DNA of 18,447 nt, taken from IMG/VR virus record IMGVR_UViG_2778261463_000012, positions 1-18,447 of that record; one strand, written 5' to 3'. The stretch is from a virus. Lineage: Duplodnaviria; Heunggongvirae; Uroviricota; Caudoviricetes. Positions 1,885 through 18,447 of this stretch are shown here, piece after piece. The notes beneath the pieces are model-generated. The model made no database searches and was not told the origin of the DNA. It was given only the letters and a program-made list of their open reading frames with translations. Within the stretch, counting starts at the first letter, position 1; the number at the start of each line of letters is the position of its first letter. The position numbers and the translations under genes are program-made.

Positions 1885-1923
1885 CTTATATGCCCGGCAA
1901 GCCGCCGGGCTAAGGGAAAGCAG

Positions 1924-2283: not shown

Positions 2284-2313
2284 AATTCCATAAATTCAGG
2301 GAGCAATAGAAAA

Positions 2314-4055: not shown

Positions 4056-4188
4056 TCGCTTAAATATTTCAAAATATGTACAAAGGTAGGACACAGAATA
4101 GACCTTAACTTACACCTGAAATACATAAAAATATACAGTGAAATATGAAATCATTTGTATTTCATATTGTTATGTAATTTGGGTGTTT

Positions 4189-4214
4189 GGGTTCAACTCC
4201 CGCCAGCTCCACCA
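4189..4214 (+). other. att core: 26-nt copy of the tmRNA (ssrA) 3' end (GGGTTCAACTCCCGCCAGCTCCACCA); not a full tmRNA gene
   Basis: Exact match to the 3'-terminal 26 nt of E. coli tmRNA as I recall it, ending in CCA. The sequence upstream (4060-4188) is AT-rich and unrelated to tmRNA, so this is an attachment-site duplicate. Confidence 0.7.
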
Positions 4215-4250
4215 CTTGCTCTTCCGGATACGTCCGGAGAAATCCTGAAA

Positions 4251-4283
4251 GCCCGCATGGCACAAGCTCTGCGGGCTTTTTTG
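4251..4283 (+). terminator. rho-independent terminator (ssrA-type) downstream of att core
   Basis: Stem GCCCGCA (4251-4257) / TGCGGGC (4271-4277) followed by TTTTTT (4278-4283). Confidence 0.6.
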
Positions 4284-4326
4284 TGTCTACTGTTGTCCGA
4301 GGATATCCAGCTAAATCCAGTGATTA

Positions 4327-4378
4327 TTGGTATACGTTTAGGTATACGGTAGGATGTATACCTAAACGCGTATACCAA
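4327..4378. promoter_or_regulatory. imperfect inverted repeat of GGTATACG-containing arms immediately upstream of int; candidate Int-binding/operator site
   Basis: Left arm TTGGTATACGTTTAGGTATACG (4327-4348) and right arm GTATACCTAAACGCGTATACCAA (4356-4378) are near-perfect reverse complements. A single copy of the arm recurs at 12578-12599 near the other end of the element. Confidence 0.4.
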
Positions 4379-4398
4379 TTCATGAAGGAGCGGCCAAA

Positions 4399-5598
4399 TT
4401 GGCAAGAACGACACGCCCCCTGACCAACACAGAAGTACTGCGCGCTAAAGCGTTAGAAAAGGATCTAACGTTGCATGATGGCGATGGTCTTTTTCTACTC
4501 GTTAAAACGAACGGTAAGAAGTTATGGCGTTTCCGTTATCAACGTCCGGCAACAAAGCAGCGGACAATGATGGGGCTAGGTACCTTCCCAGCTCTTTCAC
4601 TTGCTGACGCCCGACGGTTAAGAGCGGATTACCTTTCCTTGTTAGCCAACGGAATTGACCCGCAAATTCAAGCTGAAATTGCAGAGGAACAGCAGCAAAT
4701 CGCACAGGACAGTATTTTTACAACGGTCGCCGCTAACTGGTTCCAGCTTAAAAGCAAAAGCGTAACCCCTGATTACGCAAGAGACATTTGGCGCTCATTG
4801 GAGAAAGATGTATTCCCTGCCGTTGGTGAACTCCCAGTTCAGCAAATCAAAGCCCGAACGTTGGTTGAAGCGCTTGAGCCAGTCAAAGCTCGTGGGGCGC
4901 TAGAGACTGTACGTCGGCTAGTGCAACGCATTAACGAGATAATGATCTTTGCCGTAAATACAGGGCTGATCGATGCCAATCCAGCTTCCGGGGTTGGAAT
5001 GGCCTTTGAGAAGCCAAAAAAGCAAAACATGCCAACACTACGACCAGAAGAACTACCAAATCTAATGCGTTCTTTAGCCATGTCTAATTTATCTGTATCG
5101 ACTCGCTGCCTTATCGAATGGCAGCTTCTAACACTTGTACGCCCTTCTGAAGCCTCTGGTACTCAATGGGCAGAGATCGATCTTGAGAATAAACTCTGGA
5201 CGATCCCTGCAGGACGAATGAAAGCCAAGCGAGAACATATTGTTCCTCTGTCGGTTCGAGCATTAGATATTTTAGAGATAATGAAGCCTATTAGTGCACA
5301 TCGTGAATATGTTTTCCCAAGTAGAAATAATCCTAAGCAACCAATGAATAGTCAGACAGCTAATGCTGCATTAAAAAGAATTGGTTATGGAGGAAAGCTT
5401 GTTGCACATGGTTTGCGTTCTATAGCCAGTACAGCTATGAATGAGGAAGGTTTTAATCCCGATGTTATTGAAGCAGCATTAGCGCATAGCGATAAAAATG
5501 AAGTCCGTAAAGCATATAATCGTTCGACTTACCTTTATCAACGAATTGATTTAATGAATTGGTGGGCTAACTTCGTGTTTAAAAAAACACACGAATAG
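4399..5598 (+). CDS. int: P4-type tyrosine integrase (399 aa, TTG start)
   Basis: AAGGAG at 4385-4390 then TTG 4399. N-terminus MARTTRPLTNTEVLRAKA...DGDGLFLLV and C-terminal HGLRSIASTAMNEEGF...ALAHSDKNEVRKAYNRSTY match the P4/CP4-57 integrase architecture. Sits directly downstream of the ssrA 3'-end att core. Confidence 0.9.
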   Translation: MARTTRPLTNTEVLRAKALEKDLTLHDGDGLFLLVKTNGKKLWRFRYQRPATKQRTMMGLGTFPALSLADARRLRADYLSLLANGIDPQIQAEIAEEQQQIAQDSIFTTVAANWFQLKSKSVTPDYARDIWRSLEKDVFPAVGELPVQQIKARTLVEALEPVKARGALETVRRLVQRINEIMIFAVNTGLIDANPASGVGMAFEKPKKQNMPTLRPEELPNLMRSLAMSNLSVSTRCLIEWQLLTLVRPSEASGTQWAEIDLENKLWTIPAGRMKAKREHIVPLSVRALDILEIMKPISAHREYVFPSRNNPKQPMNSQTANAALKRIGYGGKLVAHGLRSIASTAMNEEGFNPDVIEAALAHSDKNEVRKAYNRSTYLYQRIDLMNWWANFVFKKTHE

Positions 5599-5611
5599 CC
5601 CACATAAAATA

Positions 5612-5634
5612 AGAGGCTGCTCAATGCAGCCATT
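5612..5634. terminator. probable bidirectional terminator between convergent int and cargo operon
   Basis: Hairpin GGCTGC (5615-5620) / GCAGCC (5626-5631), flanked by A-rich sequence upstream and T-rich downstream on the + strand. Confidence 0.4.
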
Positions 5635-6379
5635 ATTTCAATGAATTAATATACGTATTTAATCCTGTTGATTTTATAACTCCCATCACTTCTGGTGATT
5701 TTTTCAAATAAACAACATTAGGCCATGACAGATAAGCAATAATAATACATATTAGTCGAACCATTGCAAAATCAGACAGATTAATGAGAGTTTCAATATA
5801 CATATGTTTATCTTGCTCATCGAAACCATTTTCAGTTATAACTTCATTATCAACAAGTTTAACTGCAAGATAAAACCTTCTTGCAAATGAAAACATCTTA
5901 TCATCAGATTTATCATCTAATGATTCAATTATTTTAATCAAAGCATCTTCAGCAATACCTCTTTGAATACTGGTTTTAATCAGTTGCTCAAGTTTATTTA
6001 CAGCATTAACCTTTTTAACTTCAAAATCACCACTTGGAGATGGAAAAATCAAAGAGAAATCATCAAAAGCACTTTTTTGCGCGTTAATTAAATTATAAAA
6101 TTGAAATTCAAATGACTTCCTTTTATCAAGAAACTCCTGTCTTTTAGTCTCATTAATTAAACATTCATTCGCAGTTAATTGCATTTTAACTGATTTAATT
6201 AGAAGTAATATTGAAATGAAACTCAATATAGGATTAAGAACACCTCCAAAATAATCACCAAACTGTCCCCATATCTCTTTGTTTTCAGAAAGAGTGGTTG
6301 AGCTTCCACCAAATTGATAATAGTATAATCCAAAGACTACTAATATCAAAATAGATGTAACCCAACCTATATACCTCAT
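5633..6379 (-). CDS. membrane-anchored protein of unknown function (248 aa); downstream gene of the two-gene cargo operon
   Basis: Two N-terminal hydrophobic helices (IGWVTSILILVVFGLYYY and VLNPILSFISILLLIKSV) flank a Gly/aromatic-rich motif (WGQFGDYFGG); charged, probably helical C-terminal domain. Start overlaps the stop of the upstream gene (ATGA). GAGGTGG RBS. AT-rich. Confidence 0.65.
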   Translation of the reverse strand: MRYIGWVTSILILVVFGLYYYQFGGSSTTLSENKEIWGQFGDYFGGVLNPILSFISILLLIKSVKMQLTANECLINETKRQEFLDKRKSFEFQFYNLINAQKSAFDDFSLIFPSPSGDFEVKKVNAVNKLEQLIKTSIQRGIAEDALIKIIESLDDKSDDKMFSFARRFYLAVKLVDNEVITENGFDEQDKHMYIETLINLSDFAMVRLICIIIAYLSWPNVVYLKKSPEVMGVIKSTGLNTYINSLK

Positions 6380-7197
6380 ACCCCATCCACCTCAATAATT
6401 AAGTATTTCACTACCTCACCATTACTGATGGTTAAATCTCTAACTTTTAATAACAAATACTCTCGCTCTTCTTCTGCCAGTCTATTGTTAGCATCTAGAT
6501 TACTCGTTATTTTCTTGGTCTGGGCATCAGTAACGTATTTTAGACCATTCAAAAAACCAAAAGAAGTCGTTTTTTCTTCCCCCCTGACTAACAGTCTACC
6601 ATTTCCAGTAAAAGTATTAAACCTAGTAACTATAGCTTCTATCTGATGATCATGATTAGTTTCAATTAGCTCAGTTATATTCAAAGCGGTATTTTTGTTT
6701 AAAGTAATTATCTTTTGCTTCTCACCCGGCTTTCTATAATTCAAATCAACTGAATAGTTGCACATGGTGGAAATTTTATGCATATTTTTAAGTCTATTTC
6801 GAATAGCTTTAGTCAACTCATCTTCAATATCGTCTAATCCGGAAACCACTTTTTTTGCAGCGTCACTCAATGCCGGACCTTCTAAAAAAAGAGACTCATA
6901 AATATAATAACTCATAACTTCTGCAAATACAGTGCGAGTCATACTTGAAAGACGCGCTGCAACTTTTCTATCTGATATAACAACATCAAATCGCTGACCA
7001 AAAGAGCCTGTAAAAGAATGCTTAAGGTTTGTTCTTATTTCATTAGATTGATGTCTGTTTTCTTTAACTTTACCTCGAAGTATTGCCTCTGTAATAATAC
7101 TGGTAACTCCAGATGCACCCAATAGTGTCTGGAGAGCATAATCCATATCTATTTCATCGTCGCCGCTATTGATAACCAAATCAAGACTAACTTTCAT
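6376..7197 (-). CDS. protein of unknown function (about 273 aa); upstream gene of the two-gene cargo operon
   Basis: ORF track gives 6376-7245, but GGGGAAA precedes the ATG at 7197 (MKVSLDLV...), which I prefer as the start. Soluble; no Walker or other catalytic motif I can assign. AT-rich, unlike the P4 backbone. Confidence 0.6.
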   Translation of the reverse strand: MKVSLDLVINSGDDEIDMDYALQTLLGASGVTSIITEAILRGKVKENRHQSNEIRTNLKHSFTGSFGQRFDVVISDRKVAARLSSMTRTVFAEVMSYYIYESLFLEGPALSDAAKKVVSGLDDIEDELTKAIRNRLKNMHKISTMCNYSVDLNYRKPGEKQKIITLNKNTALNITELIETNHDHQIEAIVTRFNTFTGNGRLLVRGEEKTTSFGFLNGLKYVTDAQTKKITSNLDANNRLAEEEREYLLLKVRDLTISNGEVVKYLIIEVDGV

Positions 7198-7333
7198 TAT
7201 TTCCCCACGAATTGATAAAAATCTGCTCAATGAATAAAAGTCCATATTTTTATACAGTAATCAAACTTCCAATGTCTAAAATATGCAAACACATTAAACT
7301 AAATTTATGATAGTGATCAACATATTGCGCGCA

Positions 7334-7352
7334 GTGCTTTCCCCGCCTCGCC
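7334..7352 (-). other. P2/P4-type cos site (19-nt cohesive-end sequence)
   Basis: + strand reads GTGCTTTCCCCGCCTCGCC, the reverse complement of the P2/P4 cohesive end GGCGAGGCGGGGAAAGCAC as I recall it. Located just beyond the 3' end of psu, as in P4. Confidence 0.65.
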
Positions 7353-7455
7353 CGCCCGCTTTGTGGGGCGGTTTTAATGCAGTTGTACTGACACGCTCAG
7401 ACTGCGCCGGGAATGGCGCGGTCTGCAGAAAATGAGGCAGGGAAACGCATGCAAA

Positions 7456-7486
7456 GCCATGCACCTTATCGATGCATGGCTTTTTT
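7456..7486 (+). terminator. rho-independent terminator-like hairpin between cos and psu
   Basis: Stem GCCATGCA (7456-7463) / TGCATGGC (7473-7480), loop of 9 nt, then TTTTTT (7481-7486). The reverse strand has only a short T-run. Confidence 0.45.
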
Positions 7487-7516
7487 CAGTAAAAACGGGC
7501 GGATTTTCGGGGAATT

Positions 7517-8089
7517 TTACACAGACTGACGTGATGCCAGTTGCGCACTTTTACGCGAAAAAATCATGTTCTGCGCAGGGGTGAATTTTTCACGGCTGTC
7601 ATCCACCGAAGCCGCGTCAGGCCTGAATCCGATGGTCGTTAAAATGTCGCTATCCTGTGCGGAATAATTAATTTTTTCCCCCTTCGCAAGCCAGGACAGA
7701 AGGGCTTCACGCAGGGCATCTGTGGCACGCTGTATGGCACAGTTTCGGGCAATGGCCGTCAGCTCACTGTAGCCCATCAGCTCCGGTGCCAGTGCGGCCG
7801 CCAGTGCTGTGCCGTGCTGCTGCATAAAATCATTCAGCCGGTCGCGGATGCTGATGTGCTGAACGGCTTCATGCGAACGAATATAACGACCGGCAGCCTG
7901 ATTCACCTGCCATTTTCTGACTTCGATAATATTGCGTAATTCGTCCAGGCGACTGACGTTTCTGCCTTCCCCGGACAGAAGCCGCAGATATTCCTGTTCG
8001 GCCGCAGCCAGCTCATTTTTGCGTTGCAGCCATGCTGCTTTGTTATTCTGACAGGTGTCAAAGGCCTGCTGTAAGGCTGTGCTTTCCAT
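7517..8089 (-). CDS. psu: Psu, polarity suppression / capsid decoration protein (190 aa)
   Basis: 190-aa protein (MESTALQQAFDTCQNNKAAWLQRKNELAAAEQEY...) of P4 Psu length and sequence character, in the conserved position after delta in the sid-delta-psu block and adjacent to cos. Confidence 0.85.
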   Translation of the reverse strand: MESTALQQAFDTCQNNKAAWLQRKNELAAAEQEYLRLLSGEGRNVSRLDELRNIIEVRKWQVNQAAGRYIRSHEAVQHISIRDRLNDFMQQHGTALAAALAPELMGYSELTAIARNCAIQRATDALREALLSWLAKGEKINYSAQDSDILTTIGFRPDAASVDDSREKFTPAQNMIFSRKSAQLASRQSV

Positions 8090-8162
8090 CGTTATCTCTT
8101 TCTCATCATGCTGAAGAATAAAAATACGGTGTGCGGCGACGGCCGGTGTTAACCGGCAGCCC

Positions 8163-8663
8163 TCATTCCAGACGCAGCGAATATGATTGTGTTTTTAAGC
8201 GTACTGGCGGCAGTTCCTGTTTTTCATGCAGGCTTTCTGCCAGTTCGTCCGGCGTGACCGGGCGGACAATAAAACGGTTGATGGTCTGAAGCGTTTTAAA
8301 CACCAGACCACATCCCGGATCCGTGCACACATAAAAACGCTCGGTGACTTCCTGAGACAGACGCCGCGATGTTCTTGACAGTGCAAGGCCTTTACATCTC
8401 CGACAACAATATCCGGTAACAAGCATTCTTTTCGGGCGTTTCATACTGCCGGAGGCTGACGTCAGTGAATCGCGGTATCTCTGTTTGCCTGAAATGTATT
8501 CCATTCCTGAATCTTTACTGTCAGAGAAAAAGCTTTCACTCGCTTCAAATGTCGCAGAGCAATAAATATTCCGGCACTGTGCAATCATTATCTTGGTGCC
8601 ATCGTCCATGAAATGTGCGCGGCGGGTGTGAGCAACATGTCCACACGACGGGCAGTAAATCAT
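8163..8663 (-). CDS. delta: Delta, Ogr/Delta-family zinc-finger late transcriptional activator (166 aa from MIYCPSCGH)
   Basis: Ogr-like zinc-finger motifs (CPSCGH...QCRNIYCSATF, and a second CCRRC...CTDPGCG half), consistent with the duplicated-Ogr architecture of P4 Delta. The ORF track starts at 8720; I prefer the internal ATG at 8661-8663, giving 166 aa. Confidence 0.8.
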   Translation of the reverse strand: MIYCPSCGHVAHTRRAHFMDDGTKIMIAQCRNIYCSATFEASESFFSDSKDSGMEYISGKQRYRDSLTSASGSMKRPKRMLVTGYCCRRCKGLALSRTSRRLSQEVTERFYVCTDPGCGLVFKTLQTINRFIVRPVTPDELAESLHEKQELPPVRLKTQSYSLRLE

Positions 8664-8956
8664 GACAGCAGTCCTCTGGCCTTCAGCTCTGCTCCCTGCT
8701 GGTCTATTTTGTCCTGCCACACCTTGCGCTGTGCCGGTGTGCCTGCCACCTCATAATCCATGTGCGGGAGTGTTGCCGCTGACAGTCCGGCCAGCCGGAG
8801 AACCGGCTCGCCGCTGAGGCTGATTTGTATCTGTTTAATTTTCTGTTCCAGCGATGATTTCACCTGCTGCATGACAGCCTTTTCCGGTGCGACGTAGCCC
8901 TGATGGCCGGTGGTGTTGGCGAGCGGATTTTCCTGTACCAGAATGCTCAGATGCAT
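8660..8956 (-). pseudogene. sid: sid-like ORF, probably 5'-truncated (98 aa from its only ATG; frame open without a start up to a stop at 9116-9118)
   Basis: Occupies the position of sid directly upstream of and overlapping delta. My translation of the upstream frame finds no ATG/GTG/TTG before the stop at 9116-9118, so at most about 152 codons remain, against 244 aa for P4 Sid. Identity rests on position, not motif. Confidence 0.4.
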
Positions 8957-9489
8957 TGCCCGGACAAGCGCCTCACAGGTTTCATTCAGGGCGTGTTCCA
9001 GCTCATGCTCTGCATACAGACTCAGCAGGTGATGATGTGCCTTCCGGTATCCTTGTGCGTATCCTCGCTGACGGGCGCACCACAGACATCCCGCTGGGGC
9101 GTTTTCTGCGGGAATTTACCTGTGACCGTCCTGACCTGTTCAAACGCAGCCCCGTAAACCGGCATGCGGTACTGAAAGAAATGGCCGGAGACCCGGAATT
9201 ACAGAAATGGCGGGAGAAATATCTGGATATTTACCCGCAGGAGCCTGTTCCGGTCAGCCGGGAAGCACCGGTGGCGCGGGAATGGCGGGAAATTCCCCGC
9301 ACGGAGCCTGACCCGGAAATCACACCGGATAACAGTTACCGCAATTATCTGTAATTAAAAAACGACACCCGAAAAATTAAATGTGCGTATTCGCGCAGGG
9401 ATACGCACGTCTTCAGGAGACGCAGATATGCCTTATCAGTTAATGCAACCGGCACGGAATTCAGTCATCTGTCACAGGGAGGAAAGCAA

Positions 9490-9810
9490 ATGAAAACACC
9501 CTTACCGCCCGTCTTACGCGCTGCCCTTTACCGTCGCGCTGTCGCCTGTGCCTGGCTGACCGTGTGCGAACGTCAGCACCGCTACCCGCATCTCACCCTT
9601 GAGTCACTGGAGGCGGCCATCGCCGCTGAGCTGGAAGGCTTTTATCTGCGCCAGCACGGTGAGGAAAAAGGGCGTCAGATAGCCTGTGCCCTGCTGGAAG
9701 ATTTAATGGAATCCGGCCCCCTGAAGGCCGCGCCGTCGCTGTCCTTTCTCGGGCTGGTTGTGATGGATGAACTCTGTGCCCGTCACATAAAAGCGCCGGT
9801 ACTGCACTGA
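9490..9810 (+). CDS. small conserved protein upstream of alpha (106 aa)
   Basis: GGAGG at 9479-9483 precedes ATG 9490. GC-rich codon usage like the P4 backbone; ends 15 nt before the alpha start. In P4 a small ORF occupies the equivalent position; exact identity not verified. Confidence 0.55.
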
Positions 9811-9824
9811 AGGAGAACAACACC

Positions 9825-12158
9825 ATGAAAATGAACGTAACCGCCACCGTCAGCCATGCGCTCGGCCACTGGCCGCGTATTCTCCCGGCGCTGGGGATTC
9901 AGGTGCTGAAGAACCGTCATCAGCCCTGTCCGGTCTGTGGCGGGAGTGACCGCTTCCGTTTTGATGACAGGGAGGGGCGCGGCACCTGGTACTGCAATCA
10001 GTGTGGTGCCGGTGACGGCCTGAAACTGGTTGAAAAGGTGTTTGGTGTCTCCCCGTCCGACGCGGCCGCAAAAGTGGCTGCCGTGACCGGCAGCCTGCCC
10101 CCGGCTGACCCGGCAGTGACGGCTGCCGCCGGTGCTGAAACAGACGCTGCCCGGAAGAACGCAGCCGCACTGGCACAAACCCTGATGGCGAAAACCTGTC
10201 CCGGAACCGGTAACGCCTACCTGACCCGCAAGGGCTTTCCCGGCCGGGAATGCCGGATGCTGACCGGCACACACAGAGCCGGTGGCGTGAGCTGGCGCGC
10301 CGGTGACCTTGTGGTGCCACTGTATGACGACAGCGGCGAACTGGTTAACCTTCAGTTAATCAGTGCTGACGGCCGTAAGCGCACTCTGAAAGGCGGACAG
10401 GTCAGGGGCACCTGTCACACCTTTGAAGGACAGAATCAGGCCGGAAAACGTCTGTGGATAGCGGAGGGATACGCGACCGCACTTACCGTGCATCACCTGA
10501 CCGGTGAAACGGTGATGGTGGCGCTTTCTTCCGTGAACCTCCTTTCTCTGGCCAGCCTTGCCCGGCAGAAGTATCCGGCCTGTCAGATTGTCCTTGCCGC
10601 AGACCGTGACCTCAGCGGTGACGGCCAGACAAAAGCCGCCGCAGCCGCAGATGCGTGTGAGGGCGTTGTTGCCCTGCCGCCGGTCTTCGGTGACTGGAAT
10701 GATGCCTTCACGCAGTACGGCGGGGAGGCCACCCGTAAGGCCATTTACGATGCCATCCGGCCACCGGCTGAAAGCCCGTTCGACACCATGAGCGAAGCGG
10801 AGTTTTCCGCCATGAGTACCAGCGAAAAGGCCATGCGTATCTATGAGCATTACGGCGAGGCGCTCGCGGTCGATGCCAACGGCCAGCTTCTGTCCCGCTA
10901 TGAAAATGGTGTCTGGAAGGTGCTGCCGCCACAGGACTTTGCCCGGGATGTGGCCGGGCTGTTTCAGCGTCTGCGCGCGCCGTTCTCCTCCGGGAAGGTG
11001 GCCTCCGTGGTGGACACCCTGAAGCTGATTATTCCGCAGCAGGAAGCCCCCTCCCGCCGCCTGATTGGCTTTCGTAACGGCGTGCTCGACACGCAGAACG
11101 GCACGTTCCACCCGCACAGTCCGTCACACTGGATGCGCACCCTGTGCGATGTGGATTTCACCCCGCCGGTGGACGGTGAAACGCTGGAGACCCACGCCCC
11201 CGCGTTCTGGCGCTGGCTTGACCGTGCCGCCGGTGGCCGTGCGGAAAAACGCGACGTGATTCTGGCCGCACTGTTTATGGTGCTGGCGAACCGCTACGAC
11301 TGGCAGCTCTTTCTGGAGGTGACCGGTCCCGGCGGCAGCGGCAAAAGTATCATGGCCGAAATAGCCACCCTGCTGGCCGGGGAGGATAACGCCACGTCGG
11401 CCACCATCGAGACGCTGGAATCCCCGCGTGAACGTGCCGCGTTAACTGGCTTCTCACTGATACGCCTGCCGGACCAGGAAAAATGGAGCGGCGACGGTGC
11501 CGGACTCAAGGCCATCACCGGCGGCGATGCGGTGTCCGTGGACCCGAAATACCGGGATGCGTACTCCACGCATATCCCGGCGGTGATTCTGGCCGTGAAC
11601 AATAACCCGATGCGCTTCACCGACCGCAGCGGCGGCGTGTCACGCCGGCGGGTGATTATTCACTTCCCGGAACAGATAGCCCCGCAGGAGCGCGACCCGC
11701 AGCTTAAGGACAAAATCACCCGCGAGCTGGCGGTCATCGTGCGTCACCTGATGCAGAAGTTCAGCGACCCGATGCTCGCCCGGTCACTGCTTCAGTCCCA
11801 GCAGAACTCAGACGAGGCACTGAACATCAAACGGGATGCCGACCCGACGTTTGATTTTATCGGCTATCTGGAAACCCTGCCGCAGACCAGCGGCATGTAT
11901 ATGGGGAACGCCAGTATCATCCCGCGCAATTACCGTAAATACCTCTATCACGCCTATCTGGCCTACATGGAGGCAAACGGCTACCGGAATGTACTCAGCC
12001 TGAAAATGTTCGGGCTGGGGCTGCCGGTGATGCTGAAGGAATACGGACTGAATTACGAGAAGCGCCATACCAAACAGGGGATACAGACCAACCTGACGCT
12101 GAAAGAGGAAAGCTACGGCGACTGGCTGCCAAAATGTGACGACCCTGCAACAACCTGA
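9825..12158 (+). CDS. alpha: P4 alpha-type primase-helicase (777 aa)
   Basis: N-terminal zinc-binding motif (CPVCGGSDRFRF...WYCNQCGAGDG), a TOPRIM-like primase region (LWIAEGYATALT...VLAADRDLSGDGQ) and a Walker A box (TGPGGSGKS) of a C-terminal helicase domain. Length equals that of P4 alpha; followed by terminator and crr repeats. Confidence 0.9.
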   Translation: MKMNVTATVSHALGHWPRILPALGIQVLKNRHQPCPVCGGSDRFRFDDREGRGTWYCNQCGAGDGLKLVEKVFGVSPSDAAAKVAAVTGSLPPADPAVTAAAGAETDAARKNAAALAQTLMAKTCPGTGNAYLTRKGFPGRECRMLTGTHRAGGVSWRAGDLVVPLYDDSGELVNLQLISADGRKRTLKGGQVRGTCHTFEGQNQAGKRLWIAEGYATALTVHHLTGETVMVALSSVNLLSLASLARQKYPACQIVLAADRDLSGDGQTKAAAAADACEGVVALPPVFGDWNDAFTQYGGEATRKAIYDAIRPPAESPFDTMSEAEFSAMSTSEKAMRIYEHYGEALAVDANGQLLSRYENGVWKVLPPQDFARDVAGLFQRLRAPFSSGKVASVVDTLKLIIPQQEAPSRRLIGFRNGVLDTQNGTFHPHSPSHWMRTLCDVDFTPPVDGETLETHAPAFWRWLDRAAGGRAEKRDVILAALFMVLANRYDWQLFLEVTGPGGSGKSIMAEIATLLAGEDNATSATIETLESPRERAALTGFSLIRLPDQEKWSGDGAGLKAITGGDAVSVDPKYRDAYSTHIPAVILAVNNNPMRFTDRSGGVSRRRVIIHFPEQIAPQERDPQLKDKITRELAVIVRHLMQKFSDPMLARSLLQSQQNSDEALNIKRDADPTFDFIGYLETLPQTSGMYMGNASIIPRNYRKYLYHAYLAYMEANGYRNVLSLKMFGLGLPVMLKEYGLNYEKRHTKQGIQTNLTLKEESYGDWLPKCDDPATT

Positions 12159-12174
12159 CCATCATGACTCATCT

Positions 12175-12199
12175 GACCGGCATCTGCCGGTCTTTTTTT
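12175..12199 (+). terminator. rho-independent terminator of alpha
   Basis: Stem GACCGG (12175-12180) / CCGGTC (12187-12192) followed by TTTTTTT (12193-12199). Confidence 0.6.
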
Positions 12200-12216
12200 A
12201 TCCCTGAATTCCCCGA

Positions 12217-12515
12217 AGGTGAACAATCCACTGTTCACCCTTCACCGTATATTCACCCGTTATCACACTGAAATTAAAAGAGAAAAACGAAAGGTGAACA
12301 GTGTGAACAATCAAATCAAAAAAAACTTTTTTTCTCCCTGTGTGATTTCAGTACGGGGGATTAATCACCGGTATGAGTCACACCGGCAGAATGCCGGAGG
12401 TGAAGAATCGAATGTTCACCCTTCACCCATTATTCACCACCTATCACTCTGAAATAAAAGGAGAAAATCAAAGAGTGAACAGTGTGAACAGTTCTTTCGA
12501 AAAAAAATTTTTTTC
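12217..12515. repeat. crr-like region: two direct repeats of about 120 bp about 60 bp apart, carrying TGTTCACC/GGTGAACA iterons
   Basis: Unit 1 about 12217-12335 and unit 2 about 12398-12515 align almost base for base (e.g. ATGTTCACCCTTCACC... and ...GTGAACAGTGTGAACA... followed by A-run/T-run). This matches the P4 crr organisation and the alpha-binding octamer TGTTCACC. Confidence 0.7.
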
Positions 12516-12577
12516 CTGTACGATATAGCATCAATCCAAGTAAAAATGCGCTTTCATTTCACATTAACTTACAGCCA

Positions 12578-12599
12578 TTGGTATACGATTAGGTATACG
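12578..12599. promoter_or_regulatory. single copy of the GGTATACG-containing arm repeat (candidate Int arm-type site) near the right end of the P4-like element
   Basis: TTGGTATACGATTAGGTATACG differs by one base from the left arm at 4327-4348. Confidence 0.35.
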
Positions 12600-12652
12600 C
12601 ACAAAAACTGAATTAAACAAAATCGTTAAAAATCAAAGCGATACAATATTTA

Positions 12653-12674
12653 TTCAAACTCCGCCAGCCCACCA
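12653..12674 (+). other. degenerate second copy of the tmRNA 3'-end att core (TTCAAACTCCGCCAGCCCACCA)
   Basis: Related to 4192-4214 with a few substitutions/indels, ending in CCA, followed by the same type of terminator and by a second P4-type integrase gene. Confidence 0.55.
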
Positions 12675-12710
12675 ATTTTTGATATATTGAAGTTCAGTGA
12701 AGTCTATCAA

Positions 12711-12742
12711 GCCCGCATGGAACCAGCCTTGCGGGCTTTTTT
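12711..12742 (+). terminator. rho-independent terminator (ssrA-type) after second att core
   Basis: Stem GCCCGCA (12711-12717) / TGCGGGC (12730-12736) followed by TTTTTT (12737-12742); near-identical to the stem at 4251-4277. Confidence 0.55.
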
Positions 12743-12840
12743 ACGTCTATAGTAGTCTACCGAGAATTGCTAGAATCTACTCGTTATGGCACCCTTTTTG
12801 GGACCCAACACAAAGGGTCCAAAACATGAGGGTCCCAAAC

Positions 12841-14070
12841 ATGGCAAAAATCGCTAAGAAGCTCACTGACACTGAAATCAAAAGCACCAAACCTGCCGAG
12901 AAAGAGGTTAACCTTTTTGACGGCGATGGTTTGCTCCTGCGAATCGCCCCCTTAGCGAAGGGAGGAAAGAAAAATTGGTATTTCAGATATGCAGTGCCTG
13001 TGACCAAAAAGCGAACTAAGGTGAGCTTAGGAACCTATCCTCACCTTACACTTGCGAAGGCACGAGCTTTACGTGATGAGTACTTGTCGTTGCTTGCAAA
13101 TGGTATAGACCCACAAGTTCATAACACCCACAAAGCCAATGCCCTTAAGGATGCAACGGAACATACATTTCAAGCAGTAGCCAAGAAGTGGCTTGATGAG
13201 AAAGTCAAAACGTCAGGCATCTCCCAGGATCATGCTAACGACATCTGGCGAAGCCTAGAGAGAAATATCTTTCCAACGTTGGGTGATACCCCCATTAAGG
13301 AGATTCGCCCTAAAATGCTTAAACAGCATTTAGACCCCATAGAAAAACGAGGTGTCCTTGAAACACTTCGCCGCGTCATATCCCGCCTGAATGAAATTTT
13401 CCGCTATGCAGCAACAGAAGAACTCATAGAATTCAATCCGGCTGACAACCTGGGGCAACGGTTCAGCAAGCCAAAAAAACAGAATATGCCAGCATTACCC
13501 CCTTCCGAACTCCCCCGCTTCCTGGTTGCTCTAAACAATGCTTCTATCCGTTTAGAAACAAGGCTACTGATTGAGTGGCAACTTCTCACATGGGTTCGCC
13601 CTGGTGAAGCTGTTCGCACAAGATGGTCAGATATTGATATAGAAACCAGCATGTGGAACATCCCGGCGGAGTTTATGAAAATGAAGAAGCCTCACAAAGT
13701 TCCACTGAGCAAAGAATCTTTGCGAGTCTTGGATTCAATGAAAGCCATCAGCGGGCATAGAGAGTGGGTTTTTCCCAGTATCAAAGCTCCACTCAATCAC
13801 ATGCATGAACAAACAGCTAATGCGGCTATAATCCGTATGGGCTTCGGAGGTGAGCTTGTAGCTCATGGTATGCGATCAATCGCTAGAACGGCGGCTGAGG
13901 AGTGTGGCAAGTTTAGAACTGATGTCTTAGAAGCCGCCCTTGCCCACTCGAAAAAAGATGAAATAATTGCAGCCTACAATCGTGCAGAGTATCTCACAGA
14001 ACGTGTGGTTCTCATGCAATGGTGGAGTGACTATGTTTCGTCTCAAAAATACAAAGTTATTGCCGCATAA
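12841..14070 (+). CDS. int: P4-type tyrosine integrase, second copy (409 aa from MAKIAKKL)
   Basis: The ORF is open from 12697, but the N-terminus MAKIAKKLTDTEIKSTKPAEKEVNLFDGDGLLLRI aligns with the start of the integrase at 4399, and GAGGG precedes ATG 12841. C-terminal catalytic region HGMRSIARTAAEE...ALAHSKKDEIIAAYNRAEY. Paralog of the 4399-5598 integrase, clearly diverged. Confidence 0.85.
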   Translation: MAKIAKKLTDTEIKSTKPAEKEVNLFDGDGLLLRIAPLAKGGKKNWYFRYAVPVTKKRTKVSLGTYPHLTLAKARALRDEYLSLLANGIDPQVHNTHKANALKDATEHTFQAVAKKWLDEKVKTSGISQDHANDIWRSLERNIFPTLGDTPIKEIRPKMLKQHLDPIEKRGVLETLRRVISRLNEIFRYAATEELIEFNPADNLGQRFSKPKKQNMPALPPSELPRFLVALNNASIRLETRLLIEWQLLTWVRPGEAVRTRWSDIDIETSMWNIPAEFMKMKKPHKVPLSKESLRVLDSMKAISGHREWVFPSIKAPLNHMHEQTANAAIIRMGFGGELVAHGMRSIARTAAEECGKFRTDVLEAALAHSKKDEIIAAYNRAEYLTERVVLMQWWSDYVSSQKYKVIAA

Positions 14071-14352
14071 CTCTTCCATGATGGGTTAACTATCTTGATT
14101 TATTTGAAGAATTAATGATCACACCATTAACCTATGTGGACTAAGCATAGCCATTTACAAATGGGTACCTTGAGGCCACATAACGAAAGCTGTCGGTCAT
14201 ATCAGCTAAATAATTCACATCTCTTCTCGATTATCATACACCTCGAAGAACTACCAAATTCGCTCTAATCAATGATAAAACAGTTGAATTCGGTTAAAAT
14301 TTGATCAATTTTATCCTCTACATTGTATTGAATCATCCATGAGGTTTTGTGC

Positions 14353-15909
14353 ATGGCTAGCGGAAATGAAAAAAATCATAGAGTTAGGGTCGCACAGTAC
14401 TTGAGGATGTCTACCGACCATCAGCAATATTCTTTACATAATCAGTCTGAATATATCAAAGATTATGCTGAAAAGAACAATATGGAAATCGCTTATACCT
14501 ACGATGATGCAGGTAAGAGCGGAGTCAGTATCGTAGGCAGGCATTCTTTGCAGCAGTTACTTAGCGATGTAGAACAAAAGAAAATAGATATACAGGCTGT
14601 ATTATTTTATGATGTGAGCCGTTTTGGTCGTTTTCAAAATAGTGATGAAGCTGCATATTATTCCTTTCTATTTGAAAGAAATGGTGTAGATCTTATATAT
14701 TGTTCCGAACCTATACCCACTAAAGATTTCCCTTTAGAGTCCTCTGTTATACTGAATATAAAAAGATCAAGTGCTGCATATCACAGCAGGAATCTATCTG
14801 AAAAGGTATTTATAGGGCAAGTAAATTTAATAAAGCTTGGTTATCATCAAGGCGGTATGGCTGGTTATGGGCTGAGACGTCTTTTAGTAGACGAAAATGG
14901 CATAGCTAAAGAAATATTGAATTTCCGCAAAAGAAAGAGTATTCAAACAGATAGGGTAATATTAATTCCGGGACCAAAAAATGAAATAAAAATTGTAAAT
15001 AGAATCTATGATCTCTTTATAGATAGTAACGTCCCAGAATTCATTATTGCTGAGAGATTAAATGAACAGAGCATACCTGCAGAAAATGGAACATCATGGA
15101 CTCGTGCAAAAATACATCAAATTTTGACAAATGAAAAATATATTGGAAACAACATATATAACAAAACCTCATCTAAACTAAAAAGTAAGCTTGTAAAAAA
15201 CCCCAAACATGAATGGATTAGATGTGACAAGGCATATAAACCAATTATTTCAAAGAAAAAATATAATAAAGCTCAAGAAATAATTCAGCTCCGATCCATT
15301 CATTTGACTAATGAAGATCTATTAGAAAAGCTAAAAGAAAAATTAGAATCTAATGGAAAACTATCAGGCTTTATCATTGATGAAGATGATACAGGCCCTT
15401 CATCTTCTGTTTATAGAACCCGATTTGGTGGTCTTTTAAGAGCATATACTTTGATTGGTTATAAGCCAGAACATGATTACAGCTATCTCCAAATAAATGA
15501 AGCACTAAGATCATTTTACTCAGAGATAATTGAGGATTTTAAGGGCGAAATATTAAAAAGTAACTGTCATATAGACGAGTATAAATATTACCCAATGCTT
15601 TACATCAATGATGAGTTTTTAATTTCCGTCCTTGTTACTAAATGCATACATATGAAATCAGGTAAACTTAGATGGAAAGTCCGGTTTGATAACTCACAGA
15701 AAGCAGACATAACAATTGTTATACGAATGAATTCACAAAATATTTCACCTCTTGATTTTTATATCATACCAAAGATTGAAAACGAATATAGTAAAATGTG
15801 TATGATGGAAACAAACAACATTCGGTTAGATCTCTATAGATTTGATAATCTTGATAAATTTCTACAAATTATTACTCGCATGAAAGTGAGGGAACTATAT
15901 GCTGCCTGA
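14353..15909 (+). CDS. large serine recombinase (about 518 aa)
   Basis: N-terminal resolvase-type catalytic domain (VAQYLRMSTDHQ with the presumptive catalytic Ser; YDDAGKSG; DVSRFGR) and a recombinase domain (GYGLRR...SWTRAKIHQILTNEKYIGN), then a long C-terminal extension. GAGG at 14341-14344 precedes ATG 14353 (ORF track starts at TTG 14347). Very AT-rich. Confidence 0.8.
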   Translation: MASGNEKNHRVRVAQYLRMSTDHQQYSLHNQSEYIKDYAEKNNMEIAYTYDDAGKSGVSIVGRHSLQQLLSDVEQKKIDIQAVLFYDVSRFGRFQNSDEAAYYSFLFERNGVDLIYCSEPIPTKDFPLESSVILNIKRSSAAYHSRNLSEKVFIGQVNLIKLGYHQGGMAGYGLRRLLVDENGIAKEILNFRKRKSIQTDRVILIPGPKNEIKIVNRIYDLFIDSNVPEFIIAERLNEQSIPAENGTSWTRAKIHQILTNEKYIGNNIYNKTSSKLKSKLVKNPKHEWIRCDKAYKPIISKKKYNKAQEIIQLRSIHLTNEDLLEKLKEKLESNGKLSGFIIDEDDTGPSSSVYRTRFGGLLRAYTLIGYKPEHDYSYLQINEALRSFYSEIIEDFKGEILKSNCHIDEYKYYPMLYINDEFLISVLVTKCIHMKSGKLRWKVRFDNSQKADITIVIRMNSQNISPLDFYIIPKIENEYSKMCMMETNNIRLDLYRFDNLDKFLQIITRMKVRELYAA

Positions 15910-16795
15910 AAAAAATGAATTCCCAATAATTCAAATTGAGATTGCAAAAATAAAATTTCTTAACCCACGAACAAGAAATAAGGTAGTGCATGAAGAAATA
16001 AAGGAAAGCATAAAAAAAAGAGGATTAAGCAAGCCTATAAGCGTAAGAGCTATTGATGAAGACGATTTCAAATATGCTTTAATTTGTGGTCAAGGGAGAA
16101 TAGAGGCTCTTGTTGCATTAGGTGAAACTATTATTCCAGCAATTATAAGAGATGTATCAGAAGAAGATGCTTACGTTATGAGTTTAGTTGAAAACATTGC
16201 AAGGAGAAGACCACGTTCTAATGAGTTATTACAGGTGATTAAAGACATGAAAATCAGAGGACTTTCAGACTCCGAAATAAGTGAGATTACTGGATATTCA
16301 TCGAACTGGGTGAGCAGTATTAATATGCTTCTTGATAAGGGAGAGCATAAACTTCTCTCAGCAGTCGAACGGGGTAATTTGCCTCTGTATCTCGCAGTGC
16401 AATTTGCAAGATGTGAAACTGAGGAAGCACAAGATATTCTTACCGAAGCATATGATAAAAAATTAATAAAAAGTCGGGACATTATAAAGATAAAATACAT
16501 TCTAAATCAAAGAACAGTTGGGAATAAAGGTGCAAAAGCAGCCGGATTTTATTATCACAAACCATCAAAAAGGATGACTGCAGAGGAGTTGATTGAGCTT
16601 TATGAAAATAGTATCGCTGAACATAAATCTGTTTATAACAACTCGAAATTTATAAAAACCAATCTACTAATAATAAATGAGATTTTTAACATCATAATGA
16701 TGAATAAAAGCTTTCAAAATATACTTGAACAAGAGAATCTTTCAGAACTACCATCTCAGATATTAAACCCAGTAAACAAAGAGGTATCAAAATGA
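15899..16795 (+). CDS. ParB/Srx-superfamily (ParB N-terminal domain-like) protein, paralog 1 (298 aa)
   Basis: ParB-like N-terminal motifs (PISVRAIDEDDFKYALICGQGRIEAL; ENIARR). Start overlaps the recombinase stop by 11 nt; RBS GTGAGGGA. Confidence 0.7.
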   Translation: MLPEKNEFPIIQIEIAKIKFLNPRTRNKVVHEEIKESIKKRGLSKPISVRAIDEDDFKYALICGQGRIEALVALGETIIPAIIRDVSEEDAYVMSLVENIARRRPRSNELLQVIKDMKIRGLSDSEISEITGYSSNWVSSINMLLDKGEHKLLSAVERGNLPLYLAVQFARCETEEAQDILTEAYDKKLIKSRDIIKIKYILNQRTVGNKGAKAAGFYYHKPSKRMTAEELIELYENSIAEHKSVYNNSKFIKTNLLIINEIFNIIMMNKSFQNILEQENLSELPSQILNPVNKEVSK

Positions 16796-17688
16796 TTCAG
16801 ATACGTTTTGGCAAAAATTTTATTTACCTGGAAACTAATAAGTTAATTCCATCTAAGGAATTATTAGAAAACGTAAAGCGAAGCCATAAATATCATCAAA
16901 TAGTTACCTCTATCGAAAGCTTGGGTATTATTGAACCAATAATAGTATTCTATGACAAAGATAAAGATGTCACTAAGATACTTGATGGCCATTTAAGGGT
17001 TGAGGCTTTAAAAGACTTAGATATAGAAAAAGCTCCATGTATACTTTCGAGCATAGATGATGCTTTCACTCCTAACAAACAAGTGAATCATATAAATGTA
17101 GTTGAAGAACATAGAATCATAATTAAGTCTCTGGCAAAAGTATCAATTGAAAAACTTAGTGCTGCTTTGGGCATATCTGTTGATGCCATAAAAGATAAAG
17201 CTAATGTGATGAACGGCATAGATCCAAGTGTAATTGCGAAACTTTCTGATAAACCTATACCTAAGGCTACATTTGACGTTTTGAGGAAAATGAAGCCAAT
17301 TCGTCAAATTGAAGCAGTCGGTACAATGATTAATTTTGATAATTATAGTAAAAAATTTGCAATGAGCATCTTGGATGCAACACCGTCATCGATGATAGTA
17401 AATAAAGGGAAAAACACTCCCTATAAAAAGGACATAAAAAAAACCATACTTCGTCTGGAACAAGAAATGGCAACAACTTCGGAAGAAACGAAAAAACTTC
17501 AAACCGAGTATGGTTCAGATATGTTGAAATTCGTTATAATCCAGTCATATATTAATAAATTACTTGGCAACTCTAAAGTTCTTCATTGGTTCTTAGAAAA
17601 CGAGGTTGATTATCTTAATGAGTTAAAAAGAATTTCTAGAATAAATTCTTTGGATGATAAGACTCTTACTGAAAACAGCCAGTCATAG
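16792..17688 (+). CDS. ParB/Srx-superfamily (ParB N-terminal domain-like) protein, paralog 2 (298 aa)
   Basis: ParB-like N-terminal motifs (IIEPIIVFYDKDKDVTKILDGHLRVEAL; VVEEHR). ATGA overlap with the preceding gene; RBS AGAGG. Same length as paralog 1. Confidence 0.7.
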   Translation: MIQIRFGKNFIYLETNKLIPSKELLENVKRSHKYHQIVTSIESLGIIEPIIVFYDKDKDVTKILDGHLRVEALKDLDIEKAPCILSSIDDAFTPNKQVNHINVVEEHRIIIKSLAKVSIEKLSAALGISVDAIKDKANVMNGIDPSVIAKLSDKPIPKATFDVLRKMKPIRQIEAVGTMINFDNYSKKFAMSILDATPSSMIVNKGKNTPYKKDIKKTILRLEQEMATTSEETKKLQTEYGSDMLKFVIIQSYINKLLGNSKVLHWFLENEVDYLNELKRISRINSLDDKTLTENSQS

Positions 17689-18241
17689 TCATGGTTTTAT
17701 ATAGCCTAAATAAACCAAGAAGTATACTTACACAACGACCTTCACGCCGAAGAAGCTGTCAGATACGCCAGCAACCAAAGCATTGCGTTTAAGAGTCAGT
17801 CATTGATACGAAGGGATAACTGCGTATCAGCAGCCGGACATTGAGTCGAATAAAGGCTGGTAGAGAGGGACAGTTCTGTGTCACCGGGAGATTAGTCAGA
17901 AACATCAGCGGCAGAACAGATGAACCAGCAATTGGTAGTGTACAGAAAACTCTCCAGTATATAATTATTCAACTTAACACTAAAAAAATCACATAGTTAA
18001 TATCATAATTTTTCTTTGGTCTACTTATGCGAGAGATATTGTGGCTTCAACCTGGTATTAGGAGTCGTTTCAGATAAAAGATGTTCTTCGATTCGACTGG
18101 ACTTGGTAATAGCAATAAGTAATCGTGAATATTGAAGGACGAAAGGCTACTTCAAAACAAAGTAACCTTTCCAATATTCCCATATATGGGACAAGTGGCA
18201 CATTAACTGCACATAGTGCAGGATACATATGACATAAAACT

Positions 18242-18447
18242 TAGACTGGCCCCCTGAATCTCCAGACAACCAATATCACTTAAATAAGTGATAGTCTTAA
18301 TACTAGTTTTTAGACTAGTCATTGGAGAACAGATGATTGATGTCTTAGGGCCGGAGAAACGCAGACGGCGTACCACACAGGAAAAGATCGCAATTGTTCA
18401 GCAGAGCTTTGAACCGGGGATGACGGTCTCCCTCGTTGCCCGGCAAC
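18242..18447 (+). mobile_element. IS2 (IS3 family) left end, truncated by the window edge
   Basis: Terminal sequence TAGACTGGCCCCCTGAATCTCCAGACAACCAATATCACTTAAATAAGTGATAGTC matches the IS2 left inverted repeat region as I recall it, followed by the start of the IS2 OrfA gene. Confidence 0.8.
18333..18447 (+). CDS. insC: IS2 transposase OrfA (InsC), N-terminal 38 codons; partial
   Basis: Translation [38 protein letters not shown] matches the IS2 OrfA N-terminus. GGAGAA precedes ATG 18333. Confidence 0.8.

What the first reader, a model, noticed from the sequence alone, without database searches (positions are those of the whole stretch)
17689..18241. About 550 bp with no ORF between the ParB-like operon and IS2
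No ORF of 60 codons or more on either strand. The stretch could hold a small RNA, recombinase target sites, or a decayed gene; the IS2 insertion at 18242 may mark the disruption point.
Basis: seen in the sequence. Interest (0 to 1): 0.2.

Follow-up and report, generated by a model that had tools for sequence, protein, structure and literature searches.

The report
Mosaic junk DNA between mobile elements
The gene-free 553 bp is an ordinary junction inside a genomic island at the E. coli tmRNA gene: the tail of the recombinase/ParB operon, a dead fragment of an IS3-family transposase gene, a short unassigned spacer, and the non-coding end of a mobilizable element that IS2 has cut.

Summary
The ParB-like gene stops at 17688, IS2 starts at 18242, and the longest ORF between them is 52 aa. 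This is not unusual: 64% of dinucleotide shuffles also lack an ORF of 60 aa or more.

The stretch is a four-piece mosaic.
1. 17689-~17739 is a tail that always travels with the serine-recombinase/ParB/ParB genes.
2. 17726-17878, minus strand, is a decayed IS3-family OrfB fragment. It is 78% identical in DNA to ISKpn34, has stops and a frameshift, and RefSeq annotates it as an IS3 transposase pseudogene in another strain.
3. 17879-17954 is unassigned.
4. 17955-18241 is the first 287 bp of a ~530-bp non-coding terminal arm of an integrative mobilizable element. In strain UPEC132 the homologous arm (82%) abuts that element's 17-bp attachment repeat in mutS. IS2 sits inside an inverted repeat of this arm.

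I found no Rfam match, no promoter/terminator pair and no repeats shared with the recombinase operon beyond chance. Across genera the stretch is less conserved than the neighbouring genes. Interest is low.

The parts
17689..17739 (+). 3' tail of the serine-recombinase/ParB/ParB three-gene module. It is non-coding and has no terminator-like site. The last ~10 bases (ACACAAC...) could belong either to this tail or to the next piece.
   Evidence: In strain VE-T2 (L008) homology to the window runs from 13512 to 17739 at 93.6% and stops there. In SW071610 (L009) IS1 cuts the tail at about 17729. The tail is 98-100% identical in every island that carries the module. No terminator-like site was found.
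17726..17878 (-). Decayed internal fragment of an IS3-family transposase gene. It covers about 50 codons of the OrfB N-terminal region and has one in-frame stop and at least one frameshift. It has no DDE domain and no IS ends.
   Evidence: DNA identity is 78% to ISKpn34 with E 2e-22; the pairwise alignment covers 17730-17878 at 77%. Identity to ISSen4 is 72%. tblastn gives two HSPs at 72% identity in different frames: LSLSTSLYSTQCPAADTQLSLRIND and FGCWRI*QLLRREGRCVS. The frameshift-corrected peptide is 50% identical over 62 aa to ISSen4 OrfB, E 2e-11. PGAP annotates the equivalent of 17762-17873 as 'IS3 family transposase, frameshifted, missing N- and C-terminus' in ETEC1706. The fragment explains the local GC rise to 43-49% against about 32% in the flanking operon.
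17879..17954 (.). 76 bp of unassigned origin that always travels with the IS3 fragment. It may be further decayed IS sequence, but this is not demonstrable.
   Evidence: There is no significant protein-level extension of the IS3 match into it (E > 0.2). It has no separate DNA hit. It is conserved together with the remnant in all islands of this type.
17955..18241 (+). First 287 bp of a ~530-bp non-coding terminal arm of an integrative mobilizable element (IME), cut here by IS2. It contains a weak promoter-like site (17974-18003) and a highly conserved block from about 18130 onward.
   Evidence: The uninterrupted arm is L001 12356-12883. It is 82% identical to the arm of the UPEC132 IME, against about 70% for the relaxase gene. 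In UPEC132 the arm starts at the 17-bp att repeat AGATACTGCTGCATCAT inside the mutS 5' end. No ORF is conserved, because 1-nt indels break the 39-aa and 52-aa ORFs. There is no match in plasmids or phages.
18141..18171 (.). Inverted repeat A: GAAAGGCTACTT-N7-AAGTAACCTTTC.
   Evidence: It is invariant in all 10 aligned arms from 2 clades.
18179..18190 (.). Palindrome B: CCCATATATGGG.
   Evidence: It is broken by single changes in two relatives and in L002.
18207..18221 (.). Inverted repeat C: CTGCAC-ATA-GTGCAG.
   Evidence: The stems are invariant and the loop varies in E. ruysiae.
18228..18238 (.). Left arm of inverted repeat D (TATGACATAAA). Its partner TTTATGGCATA lies beyond IS2, outside the window.
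   Evidence: I16 in L001: 12630-12640 / 12649-12659. IS2 is inserted in the 8-nt spacer.
18242..18447 (+). Left end of IS2 (IRL and the start of the first transposase ORF), running off the window.
   Evidence: It aligns to an annotated 'IS3-like element IS2 family transposase' copy in L002.

Best explanation
The 553 bp is a recombination scar, not a functional unit. Four pieces of different ancestry lie end to end inside a tandem array of mobile elements at the tmRNA gene.

(1) About 50 bp is untranslated tail of the serine-recombinase/ParB/ParB operon. (2) About 150 bp is a dead internal fragment of an IS3-family transposase gene on the opposite strand. (3) 76 bp is unassigned. (4) 287 bp is the outer end of a mobilizable island that carries defence cargo and a MobA/VirD2 relaxase further right.

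Shown: the homologies, the breakpoints, the lack of coding potential, and the IS2 insertion inside one inverted repeat of piece 4.

Inferred: in its native setting piece 4 is the integrase-distal attachment arm of the element. Its invariant palindromes are probably protein-binding or single-strand hairpin sites used in excision, integration or transfer. In this island family the cognate integrase end is missing and the arm drifts slightly faster than the neighbouring genes. In this strain IS2 has split it, so it is most likely inert here.
For: Piece boundaries come from independent contexts.
- The three-gene module occurs without pieces 2-4 in VE-T2, with homology ending at 17739.
- The arm occurs without the module or the IS fragment in UPEC132 and E. 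ruysiae.
- The IS3 origin of piece 2 rests and on the RefSeq pseudogene annotation.
- The arm abuts the att repeat in UPEC132, and a displaced mutS N-terminus (MSTIENFDAHTPMMQQYL) lies beside it.
- The arm ends sharply at L001 ~12883, where the cargo differs between strains.

There is no sign of extra constraint. Within this island type across genera the genes are 98-99% identical, the remnant 93-98%, and the arm 96-98% (window part) and 88-95% (part beyond IS2). IS2, IS1 or deletions have hit the stretch at several different positions without loss of the island. IMEs carrying defence systems at the tmRNA hotspot are a described class (PMC10121019).
Against: The arm is the best-conserved backbone segment between the two IME types: 82% against about 70% for the relaxase. 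It contains a ~130-bp block with four invariant inverted repeats. The full arm folds far better than shuffles on both strands, with z -3.9 and -4.2. It may therefore still be a working cis element or encode an RNA. The 76-bp piece has no assigned origin. Only two sequence clades of the arm exist in the collections searched, so covariation cannot be judged.
Confidence: 0.8

Rival explanations
1. The right half (17955-18241 and the ~240 bp beyond IS2) is a still-functional cis-acting DNA element of the mobilizable island. It could be an origin of transfer, a single-strand initiation signal or a regulator-binding region. In that case IS2 has knocked out the island's mobility in this strain.
For: It has the highest backbone conservation between the two IME types. 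Four consecutive invariant inverted repeats lie at 18141-18238 and beyond. The fold z-score is about -4 on both strands, as expected for DNA palindromes. No conserved non-coding block was detected directly upstream of the mobC-like/relaxase genes, where an oriT would usually sit. In strain XJ5.2 the last ~85 nt of the arm lies about 100 bp upstream of a related mob operon with no cargo between them.
Against: No nick-site motif is conserved: the only ATCCTG-like string at 18220-18226 is changed in UPEC132. The arm has no relatives on plasmids. Within the island family it drifts faster than the genes. It tolerates IS2 at two positions and a deletion of its first ~70 bp. None of the proposed functions can be tested with sequence alone.
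Confidence: 0.2
2. The stretch encodes a small regulatory RNA, transcribed rightward from the promoter-like site at 17974-18003 through the hairpins.
For: A 9-of-12 sigma-70-like site lies at 17974-18003. A series of hairpins follows, and a terminator-like long hairpin with one compensatory change lies at the end of the uninterrupted arm, outside the window.
Against: There is no Rfam match even at E up to 10. Promoter-like sites are at shuffle level, 3 found against 2.8 expected. The structure signal is symmetric on both strands, which points to DNA palindromes rather than a strand-specific RNA. There is no covariation in the window part. The left half has z about 0.
Confidence: 0.05
3. The stretch holds target sites for the adjacent proteins: att sites of the large serine recombinase, or parS-like sites for the two ParB/RepB-like proteins.
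For: It lies immediately downstream of the operon. Palindromes are present at 18141-18238. An AGTATACT palindrome lies at 17721-17728 in the tail that always accompanies the operon.
Against: The best repeat shared between the stretch and the 5.7 kb upstream (16 of 18) is matched by 4 of 30 shuffles. The palindromes belong to the IME arm, which occurs in UPEC132 and E. ruysiae without the recombinase/ParB genes, and the operon occurs in VE-T2 without the arm. AGTATAC occurs no more often than chance, with 35 of 200 shuffles reaching the count.
Confidence: 0.04
4. One of the small ORFs (33-52 aa) is a real unannotated micro-protein gene.
For: Twelve ORFs of 20-57 aa overlap the stretch.
Against: In the arm the 39-aa and 52-aa ORFs are broken by 1-nt indels in the UPEC132-type relative. 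ORFs in the left half overlap a transposase pseudogene in other frames or on the other strand. The longest ORF is no longer than in shuffles. RefSeq annotates no CDS here in the genomes inspected, apart from the IS3 pseudogene.
Confidence: 0.03

Closest known systems
IS3-family insertion sequences ISKpn34 and ISSen4 (OrfA/OrfB transposase made by programmed frameshift)
   Same: 17726-17878 on the minus strand is homologous to the N-terminal part of OrfB. DNA identity is 78% to ISKpn34 and 72% to ISSen4, and the two tblastn segments are 72% identical to ISKpn34 OrfB at protein level.
   Different: Only about 50 codons survive. They carry a stop and a frameshift, with no OrfA, no DDE (rve) catalytic domain, no terminal inverted repeats and no target duplication. 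It is a relic, not an element.
Integrative mobilizable elements carrying defence systems at the E. coli tmRNA hotspot (hotspot #9 of Hochhauser et al. 2023, PMC10121019)
   Same: The island sits downstream of ssrA in a tandem array. It has a P4-type tyrosine integrase, variable defence-type cargo (NACHT, RelA/SpoT, type I R-M in different strains) and a MobA/VirD2 relaxase.
   Different: That paper does not describe this non-coding stretch. Here the IME backbone appears to be joined to a separate integrase/serine-recombinase/ParB module through an IS scar, and its own integrase end is missing in the uninterrupted relative examined.
Arm regions of attP/attL/attR of tyrosine-integrase elements (lambda and P4 type). 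This comparison rests on established knowledge.
   Same: The right half is non-coding, lies at the very end of an integrative element, and starts at the core repeat in the UPEC132 relative.
   Different: No repeated arm-type motif was found in it. The GGTATAC motif that clusters upstream of the integrase genes is absent from it. At ~530 bp it is longer than typical arms, and it is dominated by different palindromes rather than direct repeats.
IS2 insertions (IS3 family, 5-bp target duplication)
   Same: The sequence from 18242 is the IS2 left end. An independent IS2 copy 16 bp to the left in another strain shows the expected 5-bp duplication GGATA.
   Different: The right end of this copy is outside the window, so its target duplication cannot be read. 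No genome I inspected has IS2 at this exact position. I did not examine three further full-length matches that carry an 'IS3 family transposase' annotation (H33, H34, H44). In ETEC1706 (H32) that annotation is the IS3 remnant itself, not IS2.

Membership tests
IS3-family insertion sequence | Sequence homology to the OrfB transposase | tested here: met
   DNA identity is 78% to ISKpn34, E 2e-22. tblastn gives two HSPs at 72% identity, E 1.7e-9. There is a RefSeq pseudogene annotation in ETEC1706.
IS3-family insertion sequence | Intact reading frames with a DDE (rve) catalytic domain | tested here: not met
   Pfam finds no family in the corrected 87-aa peptide. A stop and a frameshift lie within about 50 codons, and homology ends at 17726 and 17878.
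IS3-family insertion sequence | Terminal inverted repeats and a target-site duplication | tested here: not met
   The fragment is internal to the gene. The flanks are the operon tail and the unassigned 76 bp, and no IS end is aligned.
Terminal arm of an integrative mobilizable element | Homology to a segment that abuts the att core repeat of a bounded element | tested here: met
   82% identity over ~500 bp to the UPEC132 arm, which starts at the 17-bp direct repeat in the mutS 5' end.
Terminal arm of an integrative mobilizable element | A matching att repeat and a cognate integrase at the other end of the same element | not testable with these tools
   The other end lies outside the window. 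In the uninterrupted relative (strain 300709) the backbone is cut by an IS before any integrase gene.
Terminal arm of an integrative mobilizable element | Binding sites for integrase, excisionase or host factors | not testable with these tools
   No repeated motif stands out. GGTATAC clusters upstream of the integrase genes but is absent from the arm. Binding needs an experiment.
Small non-coding RNA gene | Match to a described RNA family | tested here: not met
   Rfam gives no hit at gathering score over the whole window and only two chance-level hits at E > 1 over 17600-18300.
Small non-coding RNA gene | Own promoter and terminator | tested here: not met
   3 promoter-like sites against 2.8 expected, and 0 terminator-like sites in 17500-18350.
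Small non-coding RNA gene | Strand-specific structure supported by covariation | tested here: inconclusive
   The left half has z about 0. The full arm has z about -4 on both strands. The stems in the window part are invariant across only two clades, so there is nothing to count.
Serine-recombinase att sites or ParB parS sites | Repeats shared with the other flank of the recombinase module, or sites that co-occur with the proteins | tested here: not met
   The best shared 18-mer (16 of 18) is at shuffle level. The palindromes and the operon occur independently of each other.
Protein-coding gene | An ORF whose frame is kept in relatives | tested here: not met
   The longest ORF is 52 aa. Frames are broken by indels in relatives. 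ORF length is at shuffle level.
IS2 | Identity of the left end to annotated IS2 | tested here: met
   18242-18447 aligns to the annotated IS2 of L002 with one mismatch.

The most novel reading that the evidence does not exclude
The invariant hairpin-rich block that starts at about 18130 and continues beyond IS2 is a working cis-acting transfer or replication signal (oriT or single-strand initiation site) of a family of defence-carrying mobilizable islands. It would sit at the opposite side of the cargo slot from the relaxase genes, so that cargo is swapped between the signal and its enzymes. The IS2 copy in this window would then have immobilized the island.
Probability: 0.15. Interest if true: 0.35.

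Novelty: already known. Interest (0 to 1): 0.08.

Why it matters
It matters little. The result closes the finding as an ordinary junction between mobile elements: an operon tail, a transposase relic that RefSeq already annotates in another strain, and the non-coding end of a mobilizable island of a described class. It has some practical value for annotation. It gives exact module boundaries (17739, 17955 and the cargo boundary beyond IS2) that can be used to delimit the recombinase/ParB module and the cargo slot of this island family. It also flags a conserved palindrome block that would be the first place to look for the island's transfer or recombination sites.

Tried and rejected
- **Rfam.** A gathering-threshold scan of the whole window and a permissive scan of 17600-18300 found nothing. 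No tRNA or tmRNA gene was found.
- **Folding.** 17689-17975 folds at z about 0 on both strands.
- **Pfam.** The frameshift-corrected remnant peptide gives no family, being too short and decayed. Homology had to be shown by DNA and pairwise protein comparison instead.
- **Remnant extension.** I first thought the remnant reached about 17950 and 17696 from alignment by eye. tblastn does not support this, so the claim is cut back to 17726-17878.
- **Plasmids and phages.** BLAST of the arm against plasmids gave no match. Against phages only the IS fragment matched.
- **Genome-collection pattern scan.** A scan for inverted repeat A returned 33 loci. Most were chance palindromes in unrelated phyla. 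Only 9 were true relatives, falling in two clades, which is too little diversity for covariation.
- **MOBP-type nick motif.** ATCCTG lies on the minus strand at 18220-18226 but is not conserved in UPEC132, so I rejected it.
- **GTATAC-type integrase motif.** It is clustered upstream of the integrase genes but absent from the target.
- **PADLOC.** No defence-family hit for the recombinase or ParB1. ParB2 has only a weak hit to a methyltransferase model through its ParB-like N-terminal region.
- **Literature.** Searches for the recombinase/ParB trio and for a mutS-integrating IME found nothing specific.

Full report
**Observation.** The second ParB/RepB-like ORF ends at 17688, and the IS2 left end (TAGACTGGCCCCCTGAATCTCC...) begins at 18242. 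No ORF of 60 aa or more lies between them on either strand. The longest internal ORF is 52 aa. The coordinates and the statement are correct, but the absence of ORFs is uninformative: 64% of 2000 dinucleotide-preserving shuffles of these 553 bp also lack such an ORF.

**Context.** The window is part of a tandem array of mobile elements downstream of the tmRNA gene of E. coli.
- It holds three tyrosine-integrase genes (2883-4055, 4399-5598, 12697-14070).
- It holds a P4-like satellite with Psu, Ogr/Delta and a primase-helicase.
- After these come a large serine recombinase (14347-15909) and two ParB_N/RepB proteins.
- In strains without IS2, the target stretch continues into about 240 bp more of non-coding DNA. 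Then come variable defence-type cargo on the opposite strand (NACHT, RelA/SpoT, or type I R-M in another lineage) and a mobC-like gene plus a MobA/VirD2 relaxase.
- Defence-carrying integrative mobilizable elements at the tmRNA hotspot are a described class (PMC10121019).

**Conservation.** The 553 bp is present full-length at 97-99.8% identity in about 430 of 5426 complete E. coli genomes. It is present at 93-98% in Leclercia, Kluyvera, Enterobacter, Phytobacter and an uncultured Enterobacteriaceae genome. It is therefore a fixed part of an island that spreads between genera.

**Anatomy.** Partial matches in other contexts split the stretch into four pieces.

*Piece 1 (17689-~17739).* In strain VE-T2 the recombinase/ParB/ParB module sits elsewhere in the chromosome. 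Its homology to the window (93.6%) runs from 13512 to exactly 17739 and then stops. These ~50 bp are the module's own 3' tail. They hold no terminator-like site.

*Piece 2 (17726-17878, minus strand).* Distant BLAST hit IS3-family transposase genes: ISSen4 at 72% and ISKpn34 at 78%, E 2e-22.
- tblastn with ISKpn34 OrfB gives two segments at 72% identity in different frames. One contains a stop: LSLSTSLYSTQCPAADTQLSLRIND and FGCWRI*QLLRREGRCVS.
- A frameshift-corrected peptide is 50% identical over 62 aa to ISSen4 OrfB, E 2e-11.
- PGAP annotates the same bases in strain ETEC1706 as 'IS3 family transposase; frameshifted; missing N-terminus and C-terminus'.
- The fragment accounts for the local GC rise to 43-49%, against about 32% in the operon.
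- It folds no better than shuffles.
- It has no DDE domain and no IS ends, so it is a relic.

*Piece 3 (17879-17954).* These 76 bp always accompany the relic, but I could not assign them. My earlier impression that the relic reached about 17950 did not survive tblastn.

*Piece 4 (17955-18241).* This is the first 287 bp of a ~530-bp non-coding block (L001 12356-12883).
- The block recurs at 82% identity in an unrelated location, at the end of a ~10-kb integrative mobilizable element between mutS and ygbA in UPEC132 and E. ruysiae.
- There it begins at a 17-bp direct repeat, AGATACTGCTGCATCAT. The repeat lies inside the first codons of mutS at the integrase end. At the other end it is followed by the displaced original mutS start (MSTIENFDAHTPMMQQYL).
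- The block is therefore the integrase-distal terminal arm of that element.
- It ends sharply where the cargo begins.
- 1-nt indels between the two clades break its small ORFs.
- It has no match in plasmids or phages.
- The UPEC132 element has no recombinase/ParB genes, and VE-T2 has those genes without the arm. The palindromes in the arm therefore cannot be dedicated sites of those proteins.

**IS2 insertions.**
- In the window IS2 sits in the 8-nt spacer of an inverted repeat (TATGACATAAA / TTTATGGCATA).
- A different lineage has IS2 16 bp further left, with a 5-bp duplication GGATA.
- A third has an IS3-family element (the alignment continues into the window's IS2) about 170 bp after the ParB stop.
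- E. coli C and another strain have IS1 cuts.
- An Enterobacter genome has a deletion that removes everything from the integrase to about 18026.
- The stretch therefore tolerates disruption.

**Is anything in it functional?** The full arm folds much better than shuffles, but equally on both strands, with z -3.9 and -4.2. That is what DNA palindromes give.
- Inverted repeats A (18141-18171), C (18207-18221) and D, and palindrome B (18179-18190), lie in a ~130-bp block that is nearly invariant between the two clades.
- Between the two IME types the arm is better conserved (82%) than the relaxase gene (about 70%). A cis-acting role in recombination, transfer or regulation is plausible.
- Against strong constraint: within this island type the arm (96-98% for the window part, 88-95% beyond IS2) and the relic (93-98%) are less conserved than the adjacent genes (98-99%).
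- Only two clades exist in the collections I could reach. The only compensatory change lies in a terminator-like hairpin at the cargo boundary, outside the window.
- There is no Rfam match. Promoter-like sites are at chance level. No repeat is shared with the recombinase operon beyond chance. No integrase-associated GGTATAC motif lies in the stretch.

**Verdict.** The finding is an ordinary mosaic junction: operon tail, dead IS3 transposase fragment, short unassigned spacer, and the non-coding end of a mobilizable island split by IS2.
- Its small-RNA and recombinase-site options find no support.
- Its own refutation criterion is largely met.
- The only residual point of interest is the conserved palindrome block. 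It could be the island's transfer or recombination site, and only experiments can settle that.

Noticed in passing
window 14347-17739; L008 1837-6357: The large serine recombinase and the two ParB_N/RepB proteins form a fixed three-gene unit with its own ~50-bp tail. It occurs in at least two chromosomal contexts. In strain VE-T2 it is bracketed by two different 3' fragments of P4-type integrase genes, 93.6% and 81% identical to window 13512-14089 and 13846-14089. This looks as if the unit inserts into, or recombines at, integrase gene ends. No PADLOC defence family matches the recombinase or ParB1. Its function is unknown.
   Followed up: partly
window 4329-4376 and 12580-12598 (also 558-565): The heptamer GGTATAC occurs 8 times in the window against 1.24 expected, and no shuffle of 200 reaches 8. 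It is clustered just upstream of both P4-type integrase genes. A similar GTATAC cluster lies upstream of the UPEC132 IME integrase (L006 18380-18435). These are probably integrase arm-type or operator sites.
   Followed up: partly
L006 18232-18248 and 28605-28621 (E. coli UPEC132); also E. ruysiae L026: A ~10-kb integrative mobilizable element is inserted inside the first codons of mutS. It is flanked by a 17-bp repeat and supplies a replacement MutS N-terminus, while the original start (MSTIENFDAHTPMMQQYL) is left at the far end. I found no paper describing it in two searches.
   Followed up: partly
window 18226, 18242 and ~17858 equivalents (L002 6628; L043 ~17813): IS2-type elements have inserted independently at three different positions within this 553-bp stretch in different lineages, two of them only 16 bp apart. 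This could be a local insertion hot spot, or simply tolerated insertions.
   Followed up: partly
L001 12793-12883 (beyond the window); L047 5001-5083; L046 5001-5091: An ~85-nt long-hairpin, terminator-like element closes the arm at the cargo boundary. It recurs at 80-90% identity at other loci. In strain XJ5.2 it lies about 100 bp upstream of a related mobC-like/relaxase operon with no cargo between them. It shows a compensatory AACCC/GGGTT to AACTC/GAGTT change. This suggests the cargo slot opened between this element and the mob genes.
   Followed up: partly
window 5633-7245, minus strand: Two overlapping genes (248 and 289 aa) sit in the variable slot of the P4-like satellite, between its integrase and psu. 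Neither has a Pfam family, and the only PADLOC hit is a weak one (PDC-S25, E 1e-5) for the second. From general knowledge this slot often carries anti-phage cargo in P4-like satellites.
   Followed up: partly
L030 3000-3510 (Enterobacter sichuanensis): A deletion variant joins the 5' part of the island integrase gene directly to the arm at the equivalent of window ~18026. This removes the recombinase/ParB module and the IS relic but keeps the cargo at 98% identity.
   Followed up: no
window 1-18241 versus L010, L011, L013, L027, L028, L042: The recombinase/ParB genes and the stretch after them are 93-99% identical in E. coli, Leclercia, Kluyvera, Enterobacter and Phytobacter. This is far above core-genome identity between these genera and indicates recent horizontal spread of the island as a unit, IS relic included.
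   Followed up: partly
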